Part shown: positions 854-10,180 of the stretch, in pieces
Position numbering within the stretch: position 1 is the first letter of the stretch
Layout: every line of letters begins with the position of its first letter
The notes under the pieces: model-generated
Told to the model about the DNA's origin: nothing
The model's database searches: none
Seen by the model: the letters and a program-made list of their open reading frames with translations, nothing else
Program-made: the position numbers and the translations under genes
Source of the DNA: a virus
Lineage: Duplodnaviria > Caudoviricetes
IMG/VR virus record: IMGVR_UViG_3300044655_001017
Strand: one strand, 5' to 3'
DNA: 64,000 nucleotides

Positions 854-1119
854 TGCCACTAGTACCAATAGCGTTAGCAGTAGGAACTTTATTTGGAATT
901 GCAATTACTAAAACAGTTGCAGCTTTCAAGGAGATACAAAGACTGGATGAGTTAAAGAAATGATCAATAAAGGGTTAGCAGCAGGTATATTGTTTTATGT
1001 AACTTTATTAATGTATATACATGATAGTGGATACCTGTTGTCACCTATTGAATATTTAGTATTATCATTTAGCTGTTTACTTATTGGTGAAATGTTATAT
1101 CCAAAAGAATAAAAAACAC

Positions 1120-1147
1120 TTGACAAACAATTTTATTAGTGTATAAT
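1120..1147 (+). promoter_or_regulatory. sigma70-like early promoter
   Basis: TTGACA-16 nt-TATAAT upstream of groES; near-identical copy at 7134-7161. Confidence 0.75.
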
Positions 1148-1178
1148 ATGCACATACTAAACAACAAAGGTACACAAC

Positions 1179-1496: not shown

Positions 1497-1615
1497 AGGT
1501 TTCCTACAGCAACAATTTAATATCTCAGTGTGTCGCAGGTTCAAATCCTGCACTGCTCGCAAGAGCGGTTAGCTCAGTTGGTAGAGTAATTGATCAAAAT
1601 TGTGAAACCTGTTAA
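1497..1615 (+). ncRNA. Y-RNA-like scaffold copy A with circularly permuted tRNA module
   Basis: AGGTTTC/GAAACCT stem, CTACAGCAA bulge; inside: T arm GCAGG-TTCAAAT-CCTGC, acceptor ACTGCTC-GCAA-GAGCGGT, D arm TAGCTCAGTTGGTAGAGTA. Confidence 0.75.
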
Positions 1616-2077: not shown

Positions 2078-2205
2078 AGAATGTTAACCGCATCATAATT
2101 TAATGGAAACTGGTGTCCTTAGGACGTGTAGGTGCAAGTCCTACAATGCAATATTGCATTTGGCGAAAGAGTAGACGCACTGGTAAATAAAATGCATTCT
2201 GATAA
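2078..2205 (+). ncRNA. Y-RNA-like scaffold copy D with permuted class-II (Leu-like) tRNA module
   Basis: AGAATGT/GCATTCT stem, TAACCGCAT bulge; variable-arm hairpin, T arm GTAGG-TGCAAGT-CCTAC, closed acceptor AATGCAA/TTGCATT, D arm TGGCGAAAGAGTAGACGC. Confidence 0.7.
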
Positions 2206-2220
2206 ACACATGAGGTAACT

Positions 2221-2433
2221 ATGAATACAGATTACGCACATGCAGAAGGATTTGCTACATTTACAGGGGATGTAAAAAGAGCATATGAAATATCAAGTTG
2301 GTGCAAGGATCGCAAATTAGTACACGAAGTTGATTATAAATATCATTGTCAACGAAGAGAAAATACTAACACGATAATATTTCAATTTAAAGATCCAAAG
2401 CAAGCTACATTAGCAAGATTGGTTTGGATTTAA
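2221..2433 (+). CDS. hypothetical protein
   Basis: ORF track; GAGG RBS. Confidence 0.6.
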   Translation: MNTDYAHAEGFATFTGDVKRAYEISSWCKDRKLVHEVDYKYHCQRRENTNTIIFQFKDPKQATLARLVWI

Positions 2434-3445: not shown

Positions 3446-3531
3446 GGGCAAGCGTCGCAGTAGGAGAGGCGAGATGGACTGTAAATTCATTACCACGTGT
3501 TGAGTAGATTCGATTTCTACCTTGCCCACCA
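3446..3531 (+). tRNA. tRNA-Tyr(GUA), long variable arm, atypical D arm
   Basis: GGGCAAG/CTTGCCC acceptor, loop CTGTAAA, TTCGA T loop, encoded CCA; TATAAATA late promoter at 3430-3437. Confidence 0.8.
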
Positions 3532-3546
3532 AATAACTAATATAAC

Positions 3547-4161
3547 ATGAACGTATGTAAACACTGCCAACAACCTGCACTTTATCCTCCAAAAACAAAA
3601 TGGGGAGGTTGGTGTTGTGTTGAAAGATTTTATGATTGTACTGGATTTAAGTTAAAACAAAAACTTGGAAAAGAACAATCATCTAAAATTACCGGATTTA
3701 TGCCTAACAATGTTCCTTGGAATAAAGGTAATATAGGTAATGGAACATTTAATGGAAAAACACATACTGAAGTAACTAAAATTTCTATTTCAAATTCAAT
3801 GAAAGGTAATCGAAATGCAAATCATCGAGGTGATCGGCAAAGTTATTACAATAACATTAGAATGGATTCAAAATGGGAAGTCGGTGTAGCTAAGTATTTT
3901 GACAACAATAAAGTTGAATGGAAATATAATGTACAAGGGTATCAATTATCTAATGGCAACTATTATTACCCAGACTTTTTTATATATGAAAATGGAAATT
4001 TTGTAAAATTAGTCGAAGTTAAAGGTTATTTTAGAGAATCAAACAAGGCTAAATTTGAAATGTTCCTTAATGAATATTCACATATTCAAATAGAGCTTTG
4101 GCAAAGAACAATGCTCTATGATTTAGGAATAATAAATAAATCAGGTTATGTTATTGAATAA
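3547..4161 (+). CDS. free-standing endonuclease, PD-(D/E)XK-like with NUMOD-type linker
   Basis: N-terminal Cys cluster, PWNKG motif, YYPDFFI...LVEVKGY catalytic pattern. Confidence 0.65.
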   Translation: MNVCKHCQQPALYPPKTKWGGWCCVERFYDCTGFKLKQKLGKEQSSKITGFMPNNVPWNKGNIGNGTFNGKTHTEVTKISISNSMKGNRNANHRGDRQSYYNNIRMDSKWEVGVAKYFDNNKVEWKYNVQGYQLSNGNYYYPDFFIYENGNFVKLVEVKGYFRESNKAKFEMFLNEYSHIQIELWQRTMLYDLGIINKSGYVIE

Positions 4162-4181
4162 CAGAAACCACCAATTATAAG

Positions 4182-4255
4182 TGTCCTTTAGTGTAATGGT
4201 AGCACAGCAGATTTTGATTCTGCTAGTATAGGTTCGAGCCCTGTAGGGACTGCCA
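4182..4255 (+). tRNA. tRNA-Gln(UUG)
   Basis: Cloverleaf, GCAGA-TTTTGAT-TCTGC anticodon arm, GGTTCGAG, CCA. Confidence 0.9.
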
Positions 4256-4263
4256 AATATTAT

Positions 4264-4338
4264 TCCCTAATAGCTCAGTGGTAGAGCAGGCGACTGTTAA
4301 TTGCCCGGTCGGTGGTTCGAGCCCATCTTAGGGAGCCA
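4264..4338 (+). tRNA. tRNA-Asn(GUU)
   Basis: TCCCTAA/TTAGGGA, loop CTGTTAA, CCA. Confidence 0.92.
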
Positions 4339-4343
4339 AACAA

Positions 4344-4647
4344 GTTTATTGGGATGTAGGCTTAAAAGCAGCCATCATTTAAAGAGTGACCCGCAAACTT
4401 TGCTAAAGTGATACTTAAACTTACGGCAGTGCGAAAGCAACCTGTGAGCGTATGTAACTGCGTTAATATAGAGTCCGGCAATATGCCTTAATGGCTGTTA
4501 CGAGTCTAAAGTGATTGCTATATTAAACGGATGAGGGAGGTACACCCTAATGTTAAGGATGTTTTTCCTAATAGTTAAACTTAACATGTCCGAGAGTTAA
4601 TTAGGATGTCGCAGACAGGTCTTTGGCGTAACAGCACACCACTAAAC
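4344..4647 (+). ncRNA. 23S rRNA L11-binding domain (H43-H44) mimic with ~240-nt insertion
   Basis: GGGATGTAGGCTTAAAAGCAGCCATCATTTAAAGAG (4351-4386) and GCGTAACAGCACAC (4626-4639) match the two halves of 23S nt ~1055-1105. Confidence 0.7.
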
Positions 4648-4748
4648 AACAGAAAACTTTCTCCATCAACGAAAGTGTAGTAGTTGTCATTTTTAAATGA
4701 TAGCTATTACTAAAGCACTAAATATCAAGTGTTTTAGTAATAGTTATT

Positions 4749-4824
4749 GCCAAAGTAGCTCAATAGGTAGAGCACTTCACTTGTAATGAAGATGTTGCGG
4801 GTTCAATTCCTGTCTTTGGCTCCA
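4749..4824 (+). tRNA. tRNA-Thr(UGU)
   Basis: GCCAAAG/CTTTGGC, loop CTTGTAA, CCA. Confidence 0.92.
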
Positions 4825-4832
4825 TATATTTA

Positions 4833-4920
4833 GGAAGGTTGCCAGAATGGTTAATGGAGCAGTTTGCTAAACTGTCGACCTGAAAAGGTCGTATAGGTTC
4901 GAGTCCTATACTTTCCGCCA
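4833..4920 (+). tRNA. tRNA-Ser(GCU)
   Basis: GGAAGGT/ACTTTCC, loop TTGCTAA, long variable arm, CCA. Confidence 0.92.
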
Positions 4921-5006
4921 TACAATAAATGATTTAATTAGTACTTGACTTATACAAAATTTAATGTATAATACACGCATTAGTTAAACAAATTACAGAT
5001 CATGTT

Positions 5007-5585
5007 ATGGAACAATACAAAAATAGTAACGGAACATATACTAGTCCAAAAAATAACAGGACTTATAAAAGTTTAAAAGCATTTACTGCCCACTGGCATT
5101 ATGCACACACAACAAATCCTAATGCATTTGCTGAACGATTATATAATGTAGCATGTCAGTATTGCAATAAAGAATATATGATTAGTAATCATAAACGACA
5201 TGAAGTTGCATGTTATTTAAATCCAATTAATATAAAAAAGTGCTGTGTTTGTGATAAACCAATTAAGAATTACAAGTACAGTAAAGGTACATGTTCTCAT
5301 AGTTGTTCTAATACACATTTTAAAGAGTTAAGAAATAAACCAGAAAAATATACGCAATATGCAACAATTTGTTGGTACTATCATGTTAAAGAATGCATAG
5401 TATGTAAAGAATCAAATATTGTAGCAGTACATCATTATAATGAAAATCATAATGATAATACACTATCAAATTTAGTTCCATTATGTCCTACTCATCACCA
5501 ATACATGCATAGTAGATTTAAAATCCAAATTCAACACATTGTTGATGAGTATGTATTAAATATGAAAATAAAATTTAGAGAATAG
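5007..5585 (+). CDS. HNH endonuclease with Zn-binding N-terminal region
   Basis: CIVC...VHHYNENH...NLVPLCPTHH HNH signature. Confidence 0.8.
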   Translation: MEQYKNSNGTYTSPKNNRTYKSLKAFTAHWHYAHTTNPNAFAERLYNVACQYCNKEYMISNHKRHEVACYLNPINIKKCCVCDKPIKNYKYSKGTCSHSCSNTHFKELRNKPEKYTQYATICWYYHVKECIVCKESNIVAVHHYNENHNDNTLSNLVPLCPTHHQYMHSRFKIQIQHIVDEYVLNMKIKFRE

Positions 5586-5595
5586 TGTGTTGTGT

Positions 5596-5668
5596 CAGGG
5601 TATAGCTGAGGTTGGTTTAGCACCGCGTTTGGGGCGCGGAGACGGGAGTTCGAATCTCTCTATCCTGA
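5596..5668 (+). tRNA. tRNA-Pro(UGG), no encoded CCA
   Basis: CAGGGTA/TATCCTG, loop TTTGGGG, GTTCGAA; followed by ACACAA rather than CCA. Confidence 0.85.
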
Positions 5669-5720
5669 CACAATACATTACTAAATGTAACCCAACATAG
5701 TACGCGAATACTATAGTTTT

Positions 5721-5773
5721 TGAATGCTAACAGCAATTATTACTTTCAATGGTGAATTTAATGCATTCAGTTA
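5721..5773 (+). ncRNA. Y-RNA-like scaffold copy G with Glu(UUC)-like anticodon hairpin
   Basis: TGAATGC/GCATTCA stem, TAACAGCAA bulge, inner loop CTTTCAA. Confidence 0.65.
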
Positions 5774-5795
5774 TAGTATTTGCATACAACAGTTT

Positions 5796-5853
5796 TGGAT
5801 GCTAACTGCAACTTTAAACTTTCTTTTTATGAAACTTAAAATGCATCCAGTTA
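5796..5853 (+). ncRNA. Y-RNA-like scaffold copy H
   Basis: TGGATGC/GCATCCA stem, TAACTGCAA bulge, inner TTTC-TTTTTAT-GAAA hairpin. Confidence 0.65.
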
Positions 5854-5864
5854 TTTAATCATAT

Positions 5865-5938
5865 GCGGGATTGGCATATGGGTTGTGCAATAGCCTTCCA
5901 AGCTATCTAAACGAGTTCGAGTCTCGTATCCCGCTCCA
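5865..5938 (+). tRNA. tRNA-Gly(UCC)
   Basis: GCGGGAT/ATCCCGC, loop CTTCCAA, CCA. Confidence 0.92.
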
Positions 5939-5963
5939 ATTAACAATTACATATAGGTATAAC

Positions 5964-6356
5964 ATGAAACTAACTATTACTGATAACAGTACGTTAAAAG
6001 AAGTAAGAACACGTACTCATAGAAGTAAAACTCAGCATAGTGCGCCAATTAAACATTTTAAAGGTAAAATAGATGGATTGCGTGTAATAGTAACTGAAAC
6101 AATAACAGGTAAGAAATTTTACTTTGTTATTCCTCATGCTGCATATCAACACATGAGATCTACTACATCAATTGAAATACTATTTGAACTAGATGGTTCT
6201 CCTTCTAAACAACGTCCTAGTACTAGTTATAATGCTATTCCGAATTGGTGGATATATCAAGTTCCATCAGAATGCCATATGTATGCTTATAGAATAGATA
6301 ATAGATCAAAAATACCAGTAAATTCAACTTTTAACAATCAATACAAAGAGGACTAA
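5964..6356 (+). CDS. hypothetical protein, possibly a degenerate endonuclease
   Basis: In-frame ATG at 5964 after tRNA-Gly; basic; no clear catalytic motif. Confidence 0.45.
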   Translation: MKLTITDNSTLKEVRTRTHRSKTQHSAPIKHFKGKIDGLRVIVTETITGKKFYFVIPHAAYQHMRSTTSIEILFELDGSPSKQRPSTSYNAIPNWWIYQVPSECHMYAYRIDNRSKIPVNSTFNNQYKED

Positions 6357-6357
6357 T

Positions 6358-6633
6358 ATGACATCAATTCAAGCAAAACACATTTTAGTAGAAACAGAAG
6401 ATCAAGCAAATGACTTGTATAATAAAGTAGTTAACGAAGGTGCAGACTTTGGCGCACTTGCTGCTGTAAATAGTAAATGTCCAAGTGGCCAAAACGGTGG
6501 TGACTTAGGACCGTTTGGTCGCGGTCAGATGGTTAAACCATTTGAAGATGCAGCTTTTGAATTAGGAATTGGTAACTTTAGTAAACCTGTTCAAACACAA
6601 TTTGGTTGGCACGTTATTCAACGTACTGGCTAA
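6358..6633 (+). CDS. ppiC: parvulin-type peptidyl-prolyl isomerase
   Basis: AKHILV, DFGALA...SKCPSGQNGGDLGPFGRGQMVKPFEDAAF, VQTQFGWHVI. Confidence 0.95.
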   Translation: MTSIQAKHILVETEDQANDLYNKVVNEGADFGALAAVNSKCPSGQNGGDLGPFGRGQMVKPFEDAAFELGIGNFSKPVQTQFGWHVIQRTG

Positions 6634-6640
6634 CAATTTT

Positions 6641-6741
6641 GGTATAGATACTGCAACACAACTATAGCTGGTCTGTGGTTTCACAGATAATCCTAGGACT
6701 CTTTACCTAGTATAAAAAAAGTAAGAACTACTATACCGTTA
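6641..6741 (+). ncRNA. Y-RNA-like scaffold copy I
   Basis: GGTATAG/CTATACC stem, ATACTGCAA bulge, two inner hairpins, GTTA tail. Confidence 0.6.
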
Positions 6742-6746
6742 AAAAT

Positions 6747-6886
6747 AGGATAGGTTCAGCAAACAGAATTTGTTAGTTTAATAACTAGCTTTCTGATTAG
6801 CTTGCACTAGAGGTCATTGTGCAAGCAGCAGTCGAGGGGCAATGCTCGACTGTAAAATAAACAACTAAACGCCCAAACTATCCTGC
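6747..6886 (+). ncRNA. Y-RNA-like scaffold copy J
   Basis: AGGATAG/CTATCCT stem, GTTCAGCAA bulge, inner hairpins GCTTGCAC/GTGCAAGC and CAGTCGAG/CTCGACTG. Confidence 0.6.
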
Positions 6887-6918
6887 ATTCTTCCACTAAC
6901 AACTTATAGAGGTATATT

Positions 6919-7095
6919 ATGTCTAATGAAGACGACGATGTATTTTTTACACTTGAACCAGATACACTTGCAGAAATTTTTGCAACTACTCATCAAAAAT
7001 TAGTAGATGGAGAGATTACACTTAATGAAGCCAATCGCATAGGAAGTAACATGCCAGAAGGTTGGGAATTTGAGTTTGAAGACGAAGAAGAATAA
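6919..7095 (+). CDS. small acidic hypothetical protein (58 aa)
   Basis: GAGG RBS; MSNEDDDVFF...EFEFEDEEE; followed by a terminator-like hairpin. Confidence 0.55.
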   Translation: MSNEDDDVFFTLEPDTLAEIFATTHQKLVDGEITLNEANRIGSNMPEGWEFEFEDEEE

Positions 7096-7133
7096 ACCGC
7101 TTAACACGCGGTTTTTTATTCTCTAAAAAATAG

Positions 7134-7161
7134 TTGACAAACAATTTTAATAGTGTATAAT
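7134..7161 (+). promoter_or_regulatory. sigma70-like promoter of the TROVE-like gene
   Basis: TTGACA-16 nt-TATAAT. Confidence 0.75.
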
Positions 7162-7178
7162 ACACAACATAAACAATA

Positions 7179-7217
7179 AGTTTATTAACAGCACATAATT
7201 TAATATAAACTGAGGAG
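7179..7217 (+). promoter_or_regulatory. scaffold copy K in the 5' UTR abutting the RBS (putative autoregulatory operator)
   Basis: AGTTTAT/ATAAACT stem, TAACAGCAC bulge, 3' G is the first base of GAGGAG. Confidence 0.6.
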
Positions 7218-7224
7218 AACACAC

Positions 7225-8637
7225 ATGAGTACATTTATCGAAGCAATTGCAAATCAAGAAGATCGTACCACTAACGGTATGAAAGCACGTAAATCAACCT
7301 CAAGTGCATTAGTCGATCTCTTCTTTAAGGCAGGTGCCTCGAGAGGTAAAAACATCACACCTGAGTTTGTTGCCGCCTATGTAGAAGATAAAGATCTTGC
7401 ATTACGTATTGCAGCTTGGGTACGCGATGTACGTGGTGGTGCAGGCGAACGCCAGTTGTTTAGAGATATTTTATTGTATCTTGAAAACTCAGATCCAGAT
7501 GCTGCTAAGAAACTTGCAGCTAAAGTTCCTGAACTTGGACGCTACGATGACTTACTTGTGTTCAAAACACAAAACTTAAAGGACTATGCATTTGCGTTAA
7601 TTAAAGATGCATTAGAAGCGCAAAATGGACTTGCTGCTAAATGGATTCCACGTAAAGGAGATACTGCGGTACAGTTACGCAATTACTTAGGGTGGTCTCC
7701 TAAACGTTATCGCAAAACACTTGTTTCACTTACTAAAGTAGTTGAAACACAAATGTGTGCTAACCAATGGGACACTATTAACTTTAGTCATGTTCCATCT
7801 GTAGCATCTTCACGCTACAAAAAAGCATTTGCTCGTCACACTGACAAGTATGCTGAATACATTGCTAAATTAGTTAAAGGTGATGATCCAACTGTTAAAG
7901 TTAACGCAGGTGCGATCTATCCATATGAAATCGTTAAGGGTTTAAGTGGTTGGTCTCAACCATCACTACTTGAAAAACAACACATTATTGCACAATGGGA
8001 CGCGTTACCTAACTATGTTGGTGATGCAAGCATTTTACCATTAGTTGATGTATCAGGATCCATGGGTTGTTCTGCAGGTAAAAGCAAAACTGTTACTTGT
8101 ATGGATGTTGCATTATCTTTAGGAATATACTTAGCAGATAAAAATGCTGGTAAGTTTAAAGATACATTCTTAACATTTAGCTCTAAACCAGAGTTAGTTA
8201 CACTAAACGGTAATGTAGTTGAGAAGTATGCGCAGATGTCAAAAAGTGATTGGCAAATGGGCACTAACTTACATGCAGCTTTTTCTAAGATTTTAGAAGT
8301 TGCAGTTAATGGTAATGTACCTGTTGAAGAAATGCCAAAGATACTTTTAATATTATCTGACATGCAATTTGATGCTTGTGTAACACATGATGATTCTGCA
8401 ATAAAAATGATTTGTCGTAAGTATGAAGATGCAGGATATACAGTACCACAAGTTGTGTTTTGGAACTTAAACTCACATGACAATGTGCCAGTTAAGTACA
8501 ATGCAAAAGGTGCAGCATTAGTAAGTGGATTTAGTCCAAGTATTATGACAAGTGTACTTGCAGCTGATATGGATGACTTTACTCCACAAGCAATTATGTT
8601 ACAAACAATTATGAATCCTAGATATGATATAGGATAA
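7225..8637 (+). CDS. DUF2828-family protein (TROVE/Ro60-like helical domain plus vWA MIDAS domain)
   Basis: RDVRGGAGERQLFR, LAAKWIPRKG, DVSGSM MIDAS, ILSDMQFD, VFWNL, VSGFSPS motifs. Confidence 0.8.
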   Translation: MSTFIEAIANQEDRTTNGMKARKSTSSALVDLFFKAGASRGKNITPEFVAAYVEDKDLALRIAAWVRDVRGGAGERQLFRDILLYLENSDPDAAKKLAAKVPELGRYDDLLVFKTQNLKDYAFALIKDALEAQNGLAAKWIPRKGDTAVQLRNYLGWSPKRYRKTLVSLTKVVETQMCANQWDTINFSHVPSVASSRYKKAFARHTDKYAEYIAKLVKGDDPTVKVNAGAIYPYEIVKGLSGWSQPSLLEKQHIIAQWDALPNYVGDASILPLVDVSGSMGCSAGKSKTVTCMDVALSLGIYLADKNAGKFKDTFLTFSSKPELVTLNGNVVEKYAQMSKSDWQMGTNLHAAFSKILEVAVNGNVPVEEMPKILLILSDMQFDACVTHDDSAIKMICRKYEDAGYTVPQVVFWNLNSHDNVPVKYNAKGAALVSGFSPSIMTSVLAADMDDFTPQAIMLQTIMNPRYDIG

Positions 8638-8788
8638 ATTCTACTGCAGATCCAGCACTTACTTTAAGTACTCTGCCTCGGCTGAAGCGAAATGACTGGA
8701 ATGGGCTGCTCTCACGGGGTTTAGTAGTTGTACCTGACACAAAAGAACAACTACACTTTTATCAACTAACTAACTACGAGGAAACACT

Positions 8789-9745
8789 ATGACAACTCAT
8801 CTAACGATAGCAGCAAAGCAAGGCGATTCTATATATGCTTATGTAGTAGAAAAAGAATATCCAAATACTACAATTACCTATAACTGGTATCGAGACGGAG
8901 AATGGTTACCTGGTAATCATTTAGATACCTATCTTTTAACACAAGCAGATGTTGGCCATGTTATACAAGAAAACACTACATTCACAACTGTTATTCCTGG
9001 CGTTATATGGTCGCAACGAACTGAGCCCGGATCATATGAACTTGGATTTAAAGTTCTTAATGTAAACGACTTACCAGAAGGTGAAGTAACTATTTCTGGA
9101 ATTACTGATGTTGCGCAAGCAGGAACATTATTAACTGCAACTAATACACTTAGTGACATTGACGGTTTAGGGTCTATTCGTTATCAATGGTTGCGAAATG
9201 GTAAAGTTATTACAGGAGCAACTTCTGATACTTATGCATTATCTGCAACTGATAATAATAAGAATATTAGCGTTAAAGCAAGTTACACTGATGCATTTGG
9301 TGCTAAAGAATCTGTTACTAGCGATAGTAACTTATTTAAAGTTGCAACTTTACCAAAAACAGGATACACATACGGTAATGACATAATTTTAGGAACACCA
9401 TTAGTTGATTTATTAACTGGTGGAAGAGGTTCTGATATTTTCGTATTTACTACGCCAAGTGCTAATAAATTAGTAATTGATACTATTACTGATTTTAAAT
9501 CATATCAAAACGATAAAATTGATGTAGCTGGCATTGATGCAAATACAACTAACGATGCAGTTACGCTTTATAACGATTCGTTTCAGTTTATTGGAACCGA
9601 TGAGTTTTCAGAGCCTGGACAGTTAAGATTTGATCCTATCACCCAGTTGTTAACTGGAAACACTGATTTAGATAGTACTCCTGAGTTTTCAGTAGTACTA
9701 ACTGGTGTTAAAAGTTTAACTGCTGCAGATTTTGCTGCACTATAA
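8789..9745 (+). CDS. Ig-like repeat protein with RTX/serralysin-type Ca-binding C-terminal domain
   Basis: YQWLRNG Ig-like repeats; LTGGRGSDIFVF, DTITDF, FIG...GQLRF...DLDSTPEFSVVLTGV C-terminus; no signal peptide. Confidence 0.7.
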   Translation: MTTHLTIAAKQGDSIYAYVVEKEYPNTTITYNWYRDGEWLPGNHLDTYLLTQADVGHVIQENTTFTTVIPGVIWSQRTEPGSYELGFKVLNVNDLPEGEVTISGITDVAQAGTLLTATNTLSDIDGLGSIRYQWLRNGKVITGATSDTYALSATDNNKNISVKASYTDAFGAKESVTSDSNLFKVATLPKTGYTYGNDIILGTPLVDLLTGGRGSDIFVFTTPSANKLVIDTITDFKSYQNDKIDVAGIDANTTNDAVTLYNDSFQFIGTDEFSEPGQLRFDPITQLLTGNTDLDSTPEFSVVLTGVKSLTAADFAAL

Positions 9746-10108: not shown

Positions 10109-10180
10109 GTAAATATTTATTGACAAATGCATTGTACAATATATAATATGCACATACTTAACAACTACACAGGAGCTTAC

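What the first reader, a model, noticed from the sequence alone, without database searches (positions are those of the whole stretch)
7179..7227. A minimal copy of the scaffold sits on the RBS of the TROVE-like gene
Seen: between the promoter (7134-7161) and ATG 7225 lies AGTTTAT-TAACAGCAC-loop-ATAAACT-G, whose final G is the first base of the GAGGAG Shine-Dalgarno. This is the best internal evidence linking the RNA motif to this specific protein. Known: RNA-binding proteins (e.g. ribosomal proteins, T4 gp32) often repress their own mRNA through a mimic of their target site. Inference: translational autoregulation titrated by the ten decoy RNAs.
Basis: partly seen in the sequence, partly recalled or inferred. 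Interest (0 to 1): 0.78.

Follow-up and report, generated by a model that had tools for sequence, protein, structure and literature searches.

The report
Partner-RNA handle on Ro60-like gene's RBS
The messenger RNA of a phage's Ro60-like RNA-binding protein begins with a stripped-down copy of the "handle" found on the phage's own small RNAs, placed right against the ribosome-binding site and kept there across many related phages, so the protein probably senses and limits its own production, though nobody has tested this.

Summary
Observation confirmed. Between a perfect sigma-70 promoter (7134-7161) and ATG 7225 lies AGTTTAT(7179-85)-TAACAGCAC-10 nt-ATAAACT(7205-11), and G7212 starts the Shine-Dalgarno GAGGAG.

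It is a true member of the window's stem+ACAGCAA small-RNA family. A covariance model built only from leaders of other clades ranks it first in the 64-kb window (34.9 bits, E 1.5e-5), followed by the intergenic copies.

It is under selection. Across relatives down to 74% protein identity, 17+12 nt (stem, motif, SD) never change. The 9-nt loop remainder varies freely, and only 19% of fourfold sites are invariant.

In about 80 of 85 related loci a copy ends 10-15 nt before this gene's ATG. The stem shows compensatory changes and the cargo is optional. Leader copies recur in distant phages (phiM7, cyanophage B23, KVP40 group) but not in all (Felix-like, Listeria, LeBron).

The protein models as a Ro60/TROVE+vWA ring.

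Interpretation partly supported. The link between motif and gene is strong. Translational autorepression is the best fit (about 0.45) but untested. The main rival is a co-transcribed, excised partner RNA.

This scan has already noted the RNA family and its pairing with this protein on other DNA. I found no published description.

The parts
7094..7117 (+). Intrinsic terminator ending the upstream 58-aa ORF. It isolates the Ro60-like gene as its own transcription unit.
   Evidence: 7-bp stem with 4 GC pairs, then a T run; conserved in relatives
7134..7161 (+). Sigma-70-type promoter TTGACA-16-TATAAT. The transcription start inferred from it is near 7167-7169.
   Evidence: 12/12 match. The hexamers are invariant in 7 distinct relatives while the spacer varies. 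The start site is inferred, not mapped.
7179..7185 (+). 5' arm of the handle stem (AGTTTAT)
   Evidence: invariant in the clade. The stem covaries across clades: T:A to G:C in L019; 3 of 7 pairs carry compensatory changes.
7186..7194 (+). Conserved single-stranded motif TAACAGCAC (family consensus NNACAGCAA), flush to the 5' arm; the presumed protein-recognition element
   Evidence: (C, G, C, A invariant in 54 leader copies)
7195..7204 (+). Loop remainder standing where other copies carry a cargo domain. A7195 is invariant; 7196-7204 is hypervariable.
   Evidence: RNA-library contigs of a relative differ in the leader only at 7196 and 7199.
7205..7211 (+). 3' arm of the handle stem (ATAAACT)
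7212..7217 (+). Shine-Dalgarno GAGGAG. G7212 occupies the position of the conserved G that follows the 3' arm in all family members.
7225..8637 (+). Gene for the 470-aa DUF2828+DUF7788 protein, which has a Ro60/TROVE+vWA-like fold
   Evidence: (PHROG 850)

Best explanation
The 5' UTR of the Ro60-like (DUF2828/DUF7788) gene carries a cargo-less copy of the stem+ACAGCAA handle that marks the phage's partner small RNAs. The model has three steps.

1. Free protein binds this weak hairpin and stabilises it.
2. The helix ends on the first base of the Shine-Dalgarno sequence, so the bound 53-kDa ring blocks 30S access and lowers translation of its own mRNA.
3. When the abundant handle-bearing RNAs take up the protein, the leader is freed and synthesis resumes. 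Protein is thereby matched to RNA, as in ribosomal-protein or ThrRS feedback.

Shown here: the element exists, belongs to the RNA family, is under purifying selection, and keeps its position relative to the RBS across the phage family.

Inferred: protein binding, repression and titration.
For: (1) Family membership: model R1, built without the window clade, ranks 7178-7212 first in the window, followed by the intergenic copies.

(2) Selection: in 7 distinct relatives (74-99% protein identity) 7179-7195 and 7205-7216 are invariant. Positions 7196-7204 vary, and only 24 of 126 fourfold sites are invariant.

(3) Position: in about 80 of 85 loci a copy's 3' arm ends 10-15 nt before this gene's ATG, with the SD 0-4 nt after the arm. 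Under the strict scanner the gap from the G to the ATG peaks at 11-15 nt in 64 loci. Other copies are not placed this way. Strand bias is 249:5.

(4) The cargo is dispensable but stem, motif and adjacency are kept. Cargo-less leader copies occur in several clades with different stems, five of them directly behind their own promoter.

(5) The stem covaries: 96.8% paired against 81.9% in shuffles, and 62 double-change cells against 24.6.

(6) In this window a terminator and a promoter separate the gene from the RNA array, so the copy is not a by-product of array read-through.

(7) Recurrence at 38-50% protein identity: phiM7 has promoter + AAAACG-aca-ACAGCAA-13 nt-CGTTTT-GAAAAGGA. Cyanophage B23 has its 3' arm 7 nt from the ATG. 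BUCT-ZZ01 has it 21 nt away. In the KVP40/nt-1/1.081.O leaders GACATT could pair with AATGTC of the start codon.

(8) The hairpin alone is weak (-2.8 kcal/mol), as expected for a site that needs a bound factor.

(9) The protein's fold matches Ro60/Rsr/TROVE: the top 12 PDB hits, E 3e-7 to 2e-3.
Against: No binding or expression data exist.

In the window clade the stem does not pair with the SD or AUG, so repression would have to be steric.

The commonest leader type in relatives carries a cargo hairpin and ends CUGU, like a stand-alone RNA. It directly follows another copy, so it could simply be the last RNA gene of a co-transcribed array.

Felixounavirus Alf5, Listeria phage LP-124 and mycobacteriophage LeBron have copies near the gene but none at the RBS. 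Feedback therefore cannot be universal in the protein family.

Bas63 gp130, by its description a member of this family (homology not checked here), works when expressed alone from a plasmid or from T7 (10.1101/2024.10.10.617714). This shows the leader is not needed for function, though it does not bear on regulation.

The stem is invariant within the window clade, so covariation comes only from between-clade comparison, on an alignment fitted to the model.
Confidence: 0.45

Rival explanations
1. The leader copy is just another partner RNA, transcribed with the protein gene and cut out of the 5' UTR at the CUG(U) end. This would deliver RNA and protein in fixed proportion, with the minimal form acting as a cargo-less 'gate' RNA. 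It would not be a translational operator. It could also hold together with the operator model.
For: Most relatives have a full copy with a cargo hairpin and a CUGU end at this place, directly after another copy. Y RNAs encoded upstream of the gene and processed from one precursor are known for M. smegmatis Rsr (PMC4201824) and lie upstream of Thermus phage phiLo Ro60 (PMC12135203). An earlier scan note on another genome (e1-3753721) read a leader unit as a stand-alone RNA.
Against: In the window clade, phiM7 and others the copy has lost its cargo and stands alone behind its own promoter. Cleavage at CUG would leave an mRNA that starts on its SD. In the KVP40-type leaders the putative 3' arm is the start codon itself, so excision would destroy the mRNA. 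The narrow 10-15 nt spacing to the ATG is not needed for co-transcription.
Confidence: 0.3
2. The hairpin is a general 5' UTR element acting without the Ro60-like protein, for example an mRNA stabiliser or an RNase processing signal shared with the RNA array.
For: It lies about 11 nt from the inferred 5' end. 5' stem-loops are known to stabilise bacterial mRNAs (established knowledge, e.g. ompA). The same stem+motif flanks every RNA of the array, as a processing signal would.
Against: The hairpin is too weak to protect by itself. The two other copies of the same promoter type (1120, 10120) lack it. The element tracks this one gene across phages of proteobacteria, cyanobacteria and rhizobia, whose RNases differ. 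The invariant single-stranded 9-mer suggests sequence-specific recognition.
Confidence: 0.1
3. The inverted repeat is a DNA operator for a dimeric transcription factor downstream of the promoter.
For: It is a perfect 7-bp inverted repeat just downstream of a consensus promoter.
Against: Arm spacing varies from 19 to about 60 nt among homologous leaders. Arm sequences change while staying complementary. The conserved motif is asymmetric. The same signature shows a 249:5 strand bias in RNA arrays.
Confidence: 0.03
4. It is a chance resemblance or a decaying remnant of a former full copy with no function.
For: It lacks cargo and the usual GUUAAA tail, and its last motif base is C rather than A.
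Against: 29 invariant positions stand against 19% invariance at neutral-like sites. R1 gives E 1.5e-5. The placement recurs in distant lineages.
Confidence: 0.02

Closest known systems
Autogenous translational control by target mimicry: E. coli ribosomal proteins (S8, L1, S15, L20, S4), ThrRS on the thrS leader, T4 gp32 and RegA, MS2/R17 coat protein operator (established knowledge)
   Same: The protein's own mRNA carries, at or next to the RBS, a reduced copy of the RNA site the protein binds elsewhere. The abundant primary ligand would compete with the operator and set stoichiometry. The thrS case is closest: a mimic of part of tRNA-Thr directly upstream of the SD, with steric competition against the 30S subunit.
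   Different: Binding and repression are untested here. The protein is a Ro60-like ring, for which no autogenous control is reported in what I could search. The mimic is an exact family member minus its cargo, not a loose structural mimic. The SD itself is unpaired.
Ro60/Rsr with Y RNAs: D. radiodurans Yrn1, Salmonella and Mycobacterium YrlA/YrlB, Thermus phage phiLo Ro60 with Yrl1/Yrl2 (PMC4201824, PMC12135203)
   Same: A ring-shaped TROVE+vWA-like protein (fold match) is encoded beside several small RNAs on the same strand. Some RNAs have tRNA-like modules: the cargo of copy A hits Rfam YrlA at 35.8 bits. In several of these systems the RNAs lie upstream of the gene.
   Different: The protein is DUF2828/DUF7788, not Pfam TROVE, and has no sequence-level PDB match. 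The RNA handle is a stem plus single-stranded ACAGCAA, not the GNCGAA/GGUCCGA bulged helix. The element studied here is a cargo-less copy inside an mRNA leader, not a Y RNA.
Dictyostelid Class I RNAs (Rfam RF01414; Kjellin et al. 2021, PMC7919456)
   Same: The layout is the same: start (A/U)AG, a 6-8 bp terminal stem that covaries, a conserved unpaired ~11-nt motif ending ACAGCAA next to the 5' arm, a variable middle, and an end CUG(U). RF01414 hits leader or scaffold copies in four phage lineages at 23-30 bits over the full model length.
   Different: All hits are below the gathering score of 41.5. The window's own leader gives no RF01414 hit at E<=10. Class I RNAs are eukaryotic stand-alone RNAs whose known direct binder is an RRM protein (Rnp1A). 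I could not check whether dictyostelids have a DUF2828 protein.

Membership tests
Stem+ACAGCAA handle RNA family of DUF2828 phages (uncatalogued) | 6-9 bp terminal stem whose outer pairs are (U/A)AG...CU(G), covarying between copies | tested here: met
   AGTTTAT/ATAAACT followed by G; R1 full-length match; covariation
Stem+ACAGCAA handle RNA family of DUF2828 phages (uncatalogued) | Unpaired motif NNAC(A/N)GCA(A) flush to the 3' side of the 5' arm | tested here: met
   TAACAGCAC 7186-7194. The 8-mer TAACAGCA is identical to copies B, E, F and G. The last base is C instead of the usual A.
Stem+ACAGCAA handle RNA family of DUF2828 phages (uncatalogued) | Variable cargo domain between the motif and the 3' arm | tested here: not met
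   Only 10 unstructured nt (7195-7204). The same cargo-less state is found in leader copies of L019, L027, L031, L040, L042, L050, L058, L073 and L078.
Stem+ACAGCAA handle RNA family of DUF2828 phages (uncatalogued) | 3' tail G-UUAAA after the 3' arm | tested here: not met
   The G is kept (7212) but the tail is replaced by the SD, GAGGAG.
Autogenous translational operator (target mimicry) | The cis element in the protein's own mRNA resembles its primary RNA ligand | tested here: met
   That the family is the protein's ligand is itself inferred from co-location across phages.
Autogenous translational operator (target mimicry) | The element overlaps or abuts the ribosome-binding site | tested here: met
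   The 3' arm ends at 7211 and the SD starts at 7212. The spacing is conserved in about 80 loci.
Autogenous translational operator (target mimicry) | The protein binds the element and represses translation; the primary ligand relieves repression | not testable with these tools
   Needs EMSA, reporter fusion and toeprinting.
Y RNA / YrlA (Rfam RF00019, RF02553) | Ro-binding helix with GNCGAA / GGUCCGA motif; a tRNA-like or large internal-loop module | tested here: not met
   No Rfam hit on the leader at E<=10, and no CGAA motif in 7168-7224. Only the cargo of copy A resembles YrlA, below threshold.
Ro60/TROVE protein family (for the gene product) | HEAT-repeat ring plus vWA domain fold | tested here: met
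   AF2 model pLDDT 71.4, pTM 0.70. The top 12 Foldseek PDB hits are all Ro60/Rsr/TROVE over the full length, TM 0.36-0.55. The model is of moderate quality.
Ro60/TROVE protein family (for the gene product) | Sequence match to Pfam TROVE (PF05731) or to solved Ro60 chains | tested here: not met
   Pfam gives DUF2828 + DUF7788 and weak VWA_2 only. phmmer against the PDB finds nothing at E<=1.
Dictyostelium Class I RNA (RF01414) | Score at or above the Rfam gathering threshold (41.5 bits) | tested here: not met
   The window leader gives no hit. Relatives' copies score 23-30 bits and copy A 17.5 bits.

The most novel reading that the evidence does not exclude
The stem+ACAGCAA handle is the universal ligand of DUF2828 Ro60-like proteins. 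Its cargo-less copy on the RBS forms a Nomura-type feedback loop that sets the protein-to-RNA ratio in phage-infected cells. This would be the first autogenous control described for any Ro-like RNP. The leader would also define the minimal binding module, which matches the conserved core of the unexplained Class I RNAs of social amoebae and so points to a Ro-like partner for them.
Probability: 0.2. Interest if true: 0.85.

Novelty: new variant of a known kind. Interest (0 to 1): 0.62.

Why it matters
Ro60-type rings with their small RNAs are studied in autoimmunity, bacterial stress and, recently, phage counter-defence. A Felix-like phage's Ro60-like gp130 counters the ppl defence system (bioRxiv 10.1101/2024.10.10.617714).

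For the very large DUF2828 branch (over 700 sequenced phages; thousands of metagenomic proteins) neither the RNA ligand nor any regulation is published.

This leader offers a natural minimal binding site of about 35 nt for biochemistry and structure work. It gives a directly testable feedback circuit. It also provides independent genetic evidence that the stem plus ACAGCAA, and not the cargo, is what the protein reads.

Cultured relatives with the same arrangement (KVP40, phiM7, Synechococcus phage B23) make the experiment practical.

Tried and rejected
- Megablast of 6600-9000 against phage records found no match.
- Rfam at gathering score, and at E<=10 on 5680-7240, found nothing on the leader.
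- Thermodynamic folding of 7168-7260 is not better than shuffles (z 0.69), so stability alone gives no support.
- My first loose stem+core scanner gave 113 hits in the window and was discarded as too permissive. It was replaced by a strict one with a 249:5 strand ratio.
- The MAFFT alignment of all 54 leader copies misaligned the short ones (A3) and was not used for a model.
- The window's own assembly is not held.
- R1 found nothing at E<=1 in the whole records of KVP40, phiM7 and BUCT-ZZ01. The model is tuned to the TAGGTTA-type stem, so this says little.
- A genome-wide regex scan of KVP40 was near noise (12 against 22 hits per strand), with three plausible copies at 175.1-176.7 kb.
- Metatranscriptome contigs from 4 runs in 2 studies cover the leader and gene of a close relative. 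They break at the duplicated promoter, and being contigs they cannot show a transcript start, processing or expression level.
- The S13, phiAS5, Ahp1 and Erwinia SNUABM19 leaders show no clear motif.
- Avesson et al. 2011 (proteins bound to Class I RNA) is not held.
- The protein atlas gave only viral clusters, with no information on eukaryotic DUF2828.
- No complex prediction was run, because that tool does not take RNA.

Full report
WHAT IS THERE

The window is part of a large freshwater phage. It holds a tRNA cluster at 3446-5938, a group I intron and many sigma-70-type early promoters.

The gene at 7225-8637 (+) encodes a 470-aa DUF2828+DUF7788 protein of PHROG 850, annotated 'RNA-binding protein'.

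Upstream of it, in order:
- an intrinsic terminator (7094-7114 plus a T run) that closes a 58-aa ORF;
- a perfect consensus promoter (TTGACA-16-TATAAT, 7134-7161);
- AGTTTAT (7179-7185), TAACAGCAC (7186-7194), ten further nucleotides (7195-7204), and ATAAACT (7205-7211);
- G7212, which opens GAGGAG;
- ATG at 7225.

IS IT A COPY OF THE SCAFFOLD?

The window holds ten intergenic elements with one architecture: a 5' arm, (T)TAACAGCAA or a close variant, a variable cargo, a 3' arm, then G and usually TTAAA. The cargo of copy A matches Rfam YrlA below threshold (35.8 bits).

To test the leader without circularity I built a covariance model (R1) from nine cargo-less leader copies found in other clades of the phage family, leaving out the window clade. 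Searched with filters off over both strands of the 64-kb window, R1 puts 7178-7212 first (34.9 bits, E 1.5e-5). Scaffold copies E, B, F, A and G follow, and unrelated hits score 13 bits or less.

The leader hairpin and the intergenic RNAs therefore share one signature. The leader is a member that lacks cargo and the usual tail.

IS IT SELECTED?

Relatives were fetched from IMG/VR and from assemblies holding homologous proteins.

Seven distinct leaders from the window clade span 74-99% protein identity. In these, AGTTTATTAACAGCACA (7179-7195) and ATAAACTGAGGA (7205-7216) are invariant. Positions 7196-7204, the promoter spacer, the stretch between start site and hairpin, and the SD-ATG spacer all vary. 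Fourfold-degenerate sites in conserved codons of the gene are invariant in only 24 of 126 cases.

At 71% identity (L019) the stem is AGGTTA/TAACCT, a compensatory T:A to G:C change at the third pair.

On 50 R1 matches across the family, 96.8% of stem cells pair against 81.9% in shuffles (0 of 500 shuffles reach it). Three of the seven pairs show changes on both sides, and slid controls pair at 21-42%. That alignment is fitted to the model, which favours pairing somewhat.

IS IT TIED TO THIS GENE AND TO THE RBS?

In 85 of 90 related loci a copy is detectable just upstream of the gene. In about 80 of them the 3' arm ends 10-15 nt before the ATG, and the SD (TAAAGG, AAAGGA, TGAGG, AGGA, GGAG) begins 0-4 nt after the arm.

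A strict scanner finds 249 family members on the gene strand and 5 on the other strand in 396 kb. The distance from the post-arm G to this gene's ATG peaks sharply at 11-15 nt in 64 loci, and other copies are not so placed. In the window, copies D and E lie 19 nt before the small ORFs at 2221 and 2520.

The commonest leader type carries a ~30-nt cargo hairpin and directly follows another copy. Several clades instead have cargo-less copies with different stems, five of them right behind a private promoter as in the window.

So the cargo can be lost, but the stem, the motif and the adjacency to the RBS are kept.

DISTANT RELATIVES

The protein family occurs in 706 phage records.

Leader copies near the RBS:
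- Synechococcus phage BUCT-ZZ01 (50% identity) has three copies upstream, the last ending 21 nt before the ATG.
- Synechococcus phage B23 (38%) has a copy ending 7 nt before the ATG.
- Sinorhizobium phage phiM7 (40%) has a promoter followed by AAAACG-aca-ACAGCAA-13 nt-CGTTTT-GAAAAGGA.
- KVP40, nt-1 and Vibrio phage 1.081.O share CGACATT(T/A)(T/A)ACAGCAA 8-10 nt before the SD. There GACATT could pair with AATGTC of the start codon. That pairing is unverified because the 3' arm is constrained by coding.

Copies near the gene but none at the RBS:
- Felixounavirus Alf5 has four copies downstream among tRNAs.
- Listeria phage LP-124 has three copies upstream, then a terminator-like hairpin.
- Mycobacteriophage LeBron has two copies downstream.

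S13, phiAS5, Ahp1 and an Erwinia jumbo phage show no clear leader motif.

Equally, the arrangement is not universal.

THE PROTEIN

An AlphaFold2 model built on 12 sequences (pLDDT 71.4, pTM 0.70) matches, over its full length, only Ro60/Rsr/TROVE structures in the top 12 Foldseek hits. These include Thermus phage phiLo Ro60 (9kop, 9l5y), Xenopus Ro60 with RNA (1yvp, 2i91) and Deinococcus Rsr (2nvo), at E 3e-7 to 2e-3. vWA domains follow lower in the list.

There is no sequence-level match to Pfam TROVE or to PDB chains. 'TROVE-like' is right at the level of fold only.

MECHANISM

The hairpin is weak on its own: -2.8 kcal/mol, stem pair probability 0.15-0.19, and a competing hairpin at 7169-7174/7180-7185 that is not conserved. 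This argues for a trans-acting factor.

Three things favour RNA-level recognition over a DNA operator: the invariant asymmetric 9-mer, the covarying stem and the 249:5 strand bias.

The best-supported model is that the Ro60-like protein binds stem and motif, and that because the helix ends on the SD the bound ring competes with the 30S subunit. Handle-bearing RNAs made from the nearby early promoters would compete for the protein and relieve repression. This is the logic of ribosomal-protein and ThrRS feedback (established knowledge).

My confidence by step:
- the element is a selected cis copy of the handle: about 0.95;
- the protein binds it: about 0.7;
- binding represses translation: about 0.45.

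The main rival (about 0.3, and not exclusive) is that the copy is a partner RNA co-transcribed with the gene and cut out at its CUG(U) end. This happens for Y RNAs upstream of M. smegmatis rsr (PMC4201824) and is possible for phiLo Yrl1/2 (PMC12135203). The cargo-bearing leader copies of most relatives fit it. The cargo-less promoter-proximal copies, the tight spacing and the KVP40-type arrangement fit it less well.

WHAT IS KNOWN

The published work I could search describes:
- Y RNAs next to TROVE-type Ro60 in bacteria and 22 phages (PMC4201824);
- a phage Ro60 structure with two upstream Y-like RNAs (PMC12135203);
- speculation that abundant ncRNAs upstream of a Listeria phage Rsr-like gene are Y RNAs (PMC12282133);
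- a Ro60-like Bas63 gp130 that counters the ppl defence system (10.1101/2024.10.10.617714).

None of these describes the stem+ACAGCAA handle, and none describes autogenous control of a Ro-like protein.

Earlier notes of this scan had already reported the handle, its pairing with DUF2828 proteins and its likeness to Class I RNAs in other genomes, and had seen leader copies. They are unpublished AI notes. I reached the same points from my own calls (36, 73, 78) and add the quantitative evidence on conservation and spacing for the RBS-abutting copy.

VERDICT

This is a real, selected, conserved cis element. Autoregulation is the most likely reading, is readily testable and is unproven. In kind it is a new variant of a known mechanism (feedback by target mimicry) in a protein-RNA family where it has not been described.

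Noticed in passing
window 1498-1611; L059:1422-1473; L035:370-422; L101:1338-1398; L105:866-921: Rfam Dicty_Class_I_RNA (RF01414) is the only non-tRNA, non-YrlA family that repeatedly hits the handle RNAs. The hits are full length, at 17.5-30.3 bits, in four phage lineages, all below the gathering score of 41.5. Class I RNAs share the layout: AAG start, 6-bp covarying stem, 11-nt motif ending ACAGCAA next to the 5' arm, variable middle, CUGU end (PMC7919456). I could not check whether dictyostelids encode a DUF2828 protein.
   Followed up: partly
window 1512-1606; L026:825-947: The cargo of scaffold copy A, and a cargo in a relative, match Rfam YrlA (Y RNA-like, tRNA mimic) over the whole model at 35.8 and 40.1 bits, below the gathering score of 69.
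   Followed up: partly
window 2196-2223 and 2493-2522: Scaffold copies D and E end 19 nt before the starts of two small ORFs (2221-2433, 70 aa, with a GAGG SD; 2520-2810, 96 aa). This is looser than at the Ro60-like gene, but it raises the question of whether other genes are also under the handle's influence.
   Followed up: no
window 4621-4636: The exact 9-mer of the leader, TAACAGCAC, also occurs in the long structured RNA between tRNA-Asn and tRNA-Thr. Its apparent 3' partner is the acceptor stem of tRNA-Thr, so this is probably not a scaffold copy.
   Followed up: no
window 1110-1148 and 7124-7162 (also 10120-10165): The promoter of the Ro60-like gene is a 92% identical duplicate of the promoter that heads the RNA array region. 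The sequences downstream of the -10 differ, and only the 7134 copy is followed by the handle.
   Followed up: partly
L105 (Listeria phage LP-124) 866-1110: Three handle copies (..TAACAGCAA, ..TAACAGCAA, ..ACACAGCAA) lie within 350 nt upstream of the DUF2828 gene. This fits the 'three highly transcribed regions' upstream of the Rsr-like gene reported for the related phage CKA15 (PMC12282133).
   Followed up: partly
L104 (Escherichia phage Alf5) 2950-3700: Four copies with the arm AGAAGACC followed by ..ACAGCAA or ..TCAGCAA are interleaved with the tRNA genes just downstream of the DUF2828 gene. In the related Bas63 the Ro60-like gp130 counters the ppl defence system (10.1101/2024.10.10.617714).
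   Followed up: partly
L103, L110, L111 (KVP40, nt-1, Vibrio phage 1.081.O), 50 nt before the gene: The conserved leader CGACATT(T/A)(T/A)ACAGCAA precedes the SD. GACATT is complementary to AATGTC spanning the start codon, which would enclose SD and AUG inside the handle stem. No covariation is available to test this.
   Followed up: partly
window 6354-6887: Freshwater metatranscriptome contigs of a close relative cover the region of scaffold copies I and J as single long pieces in three runs of one study. Contigs cannot rank expression, so this shows presence only.
   Followed up: partly
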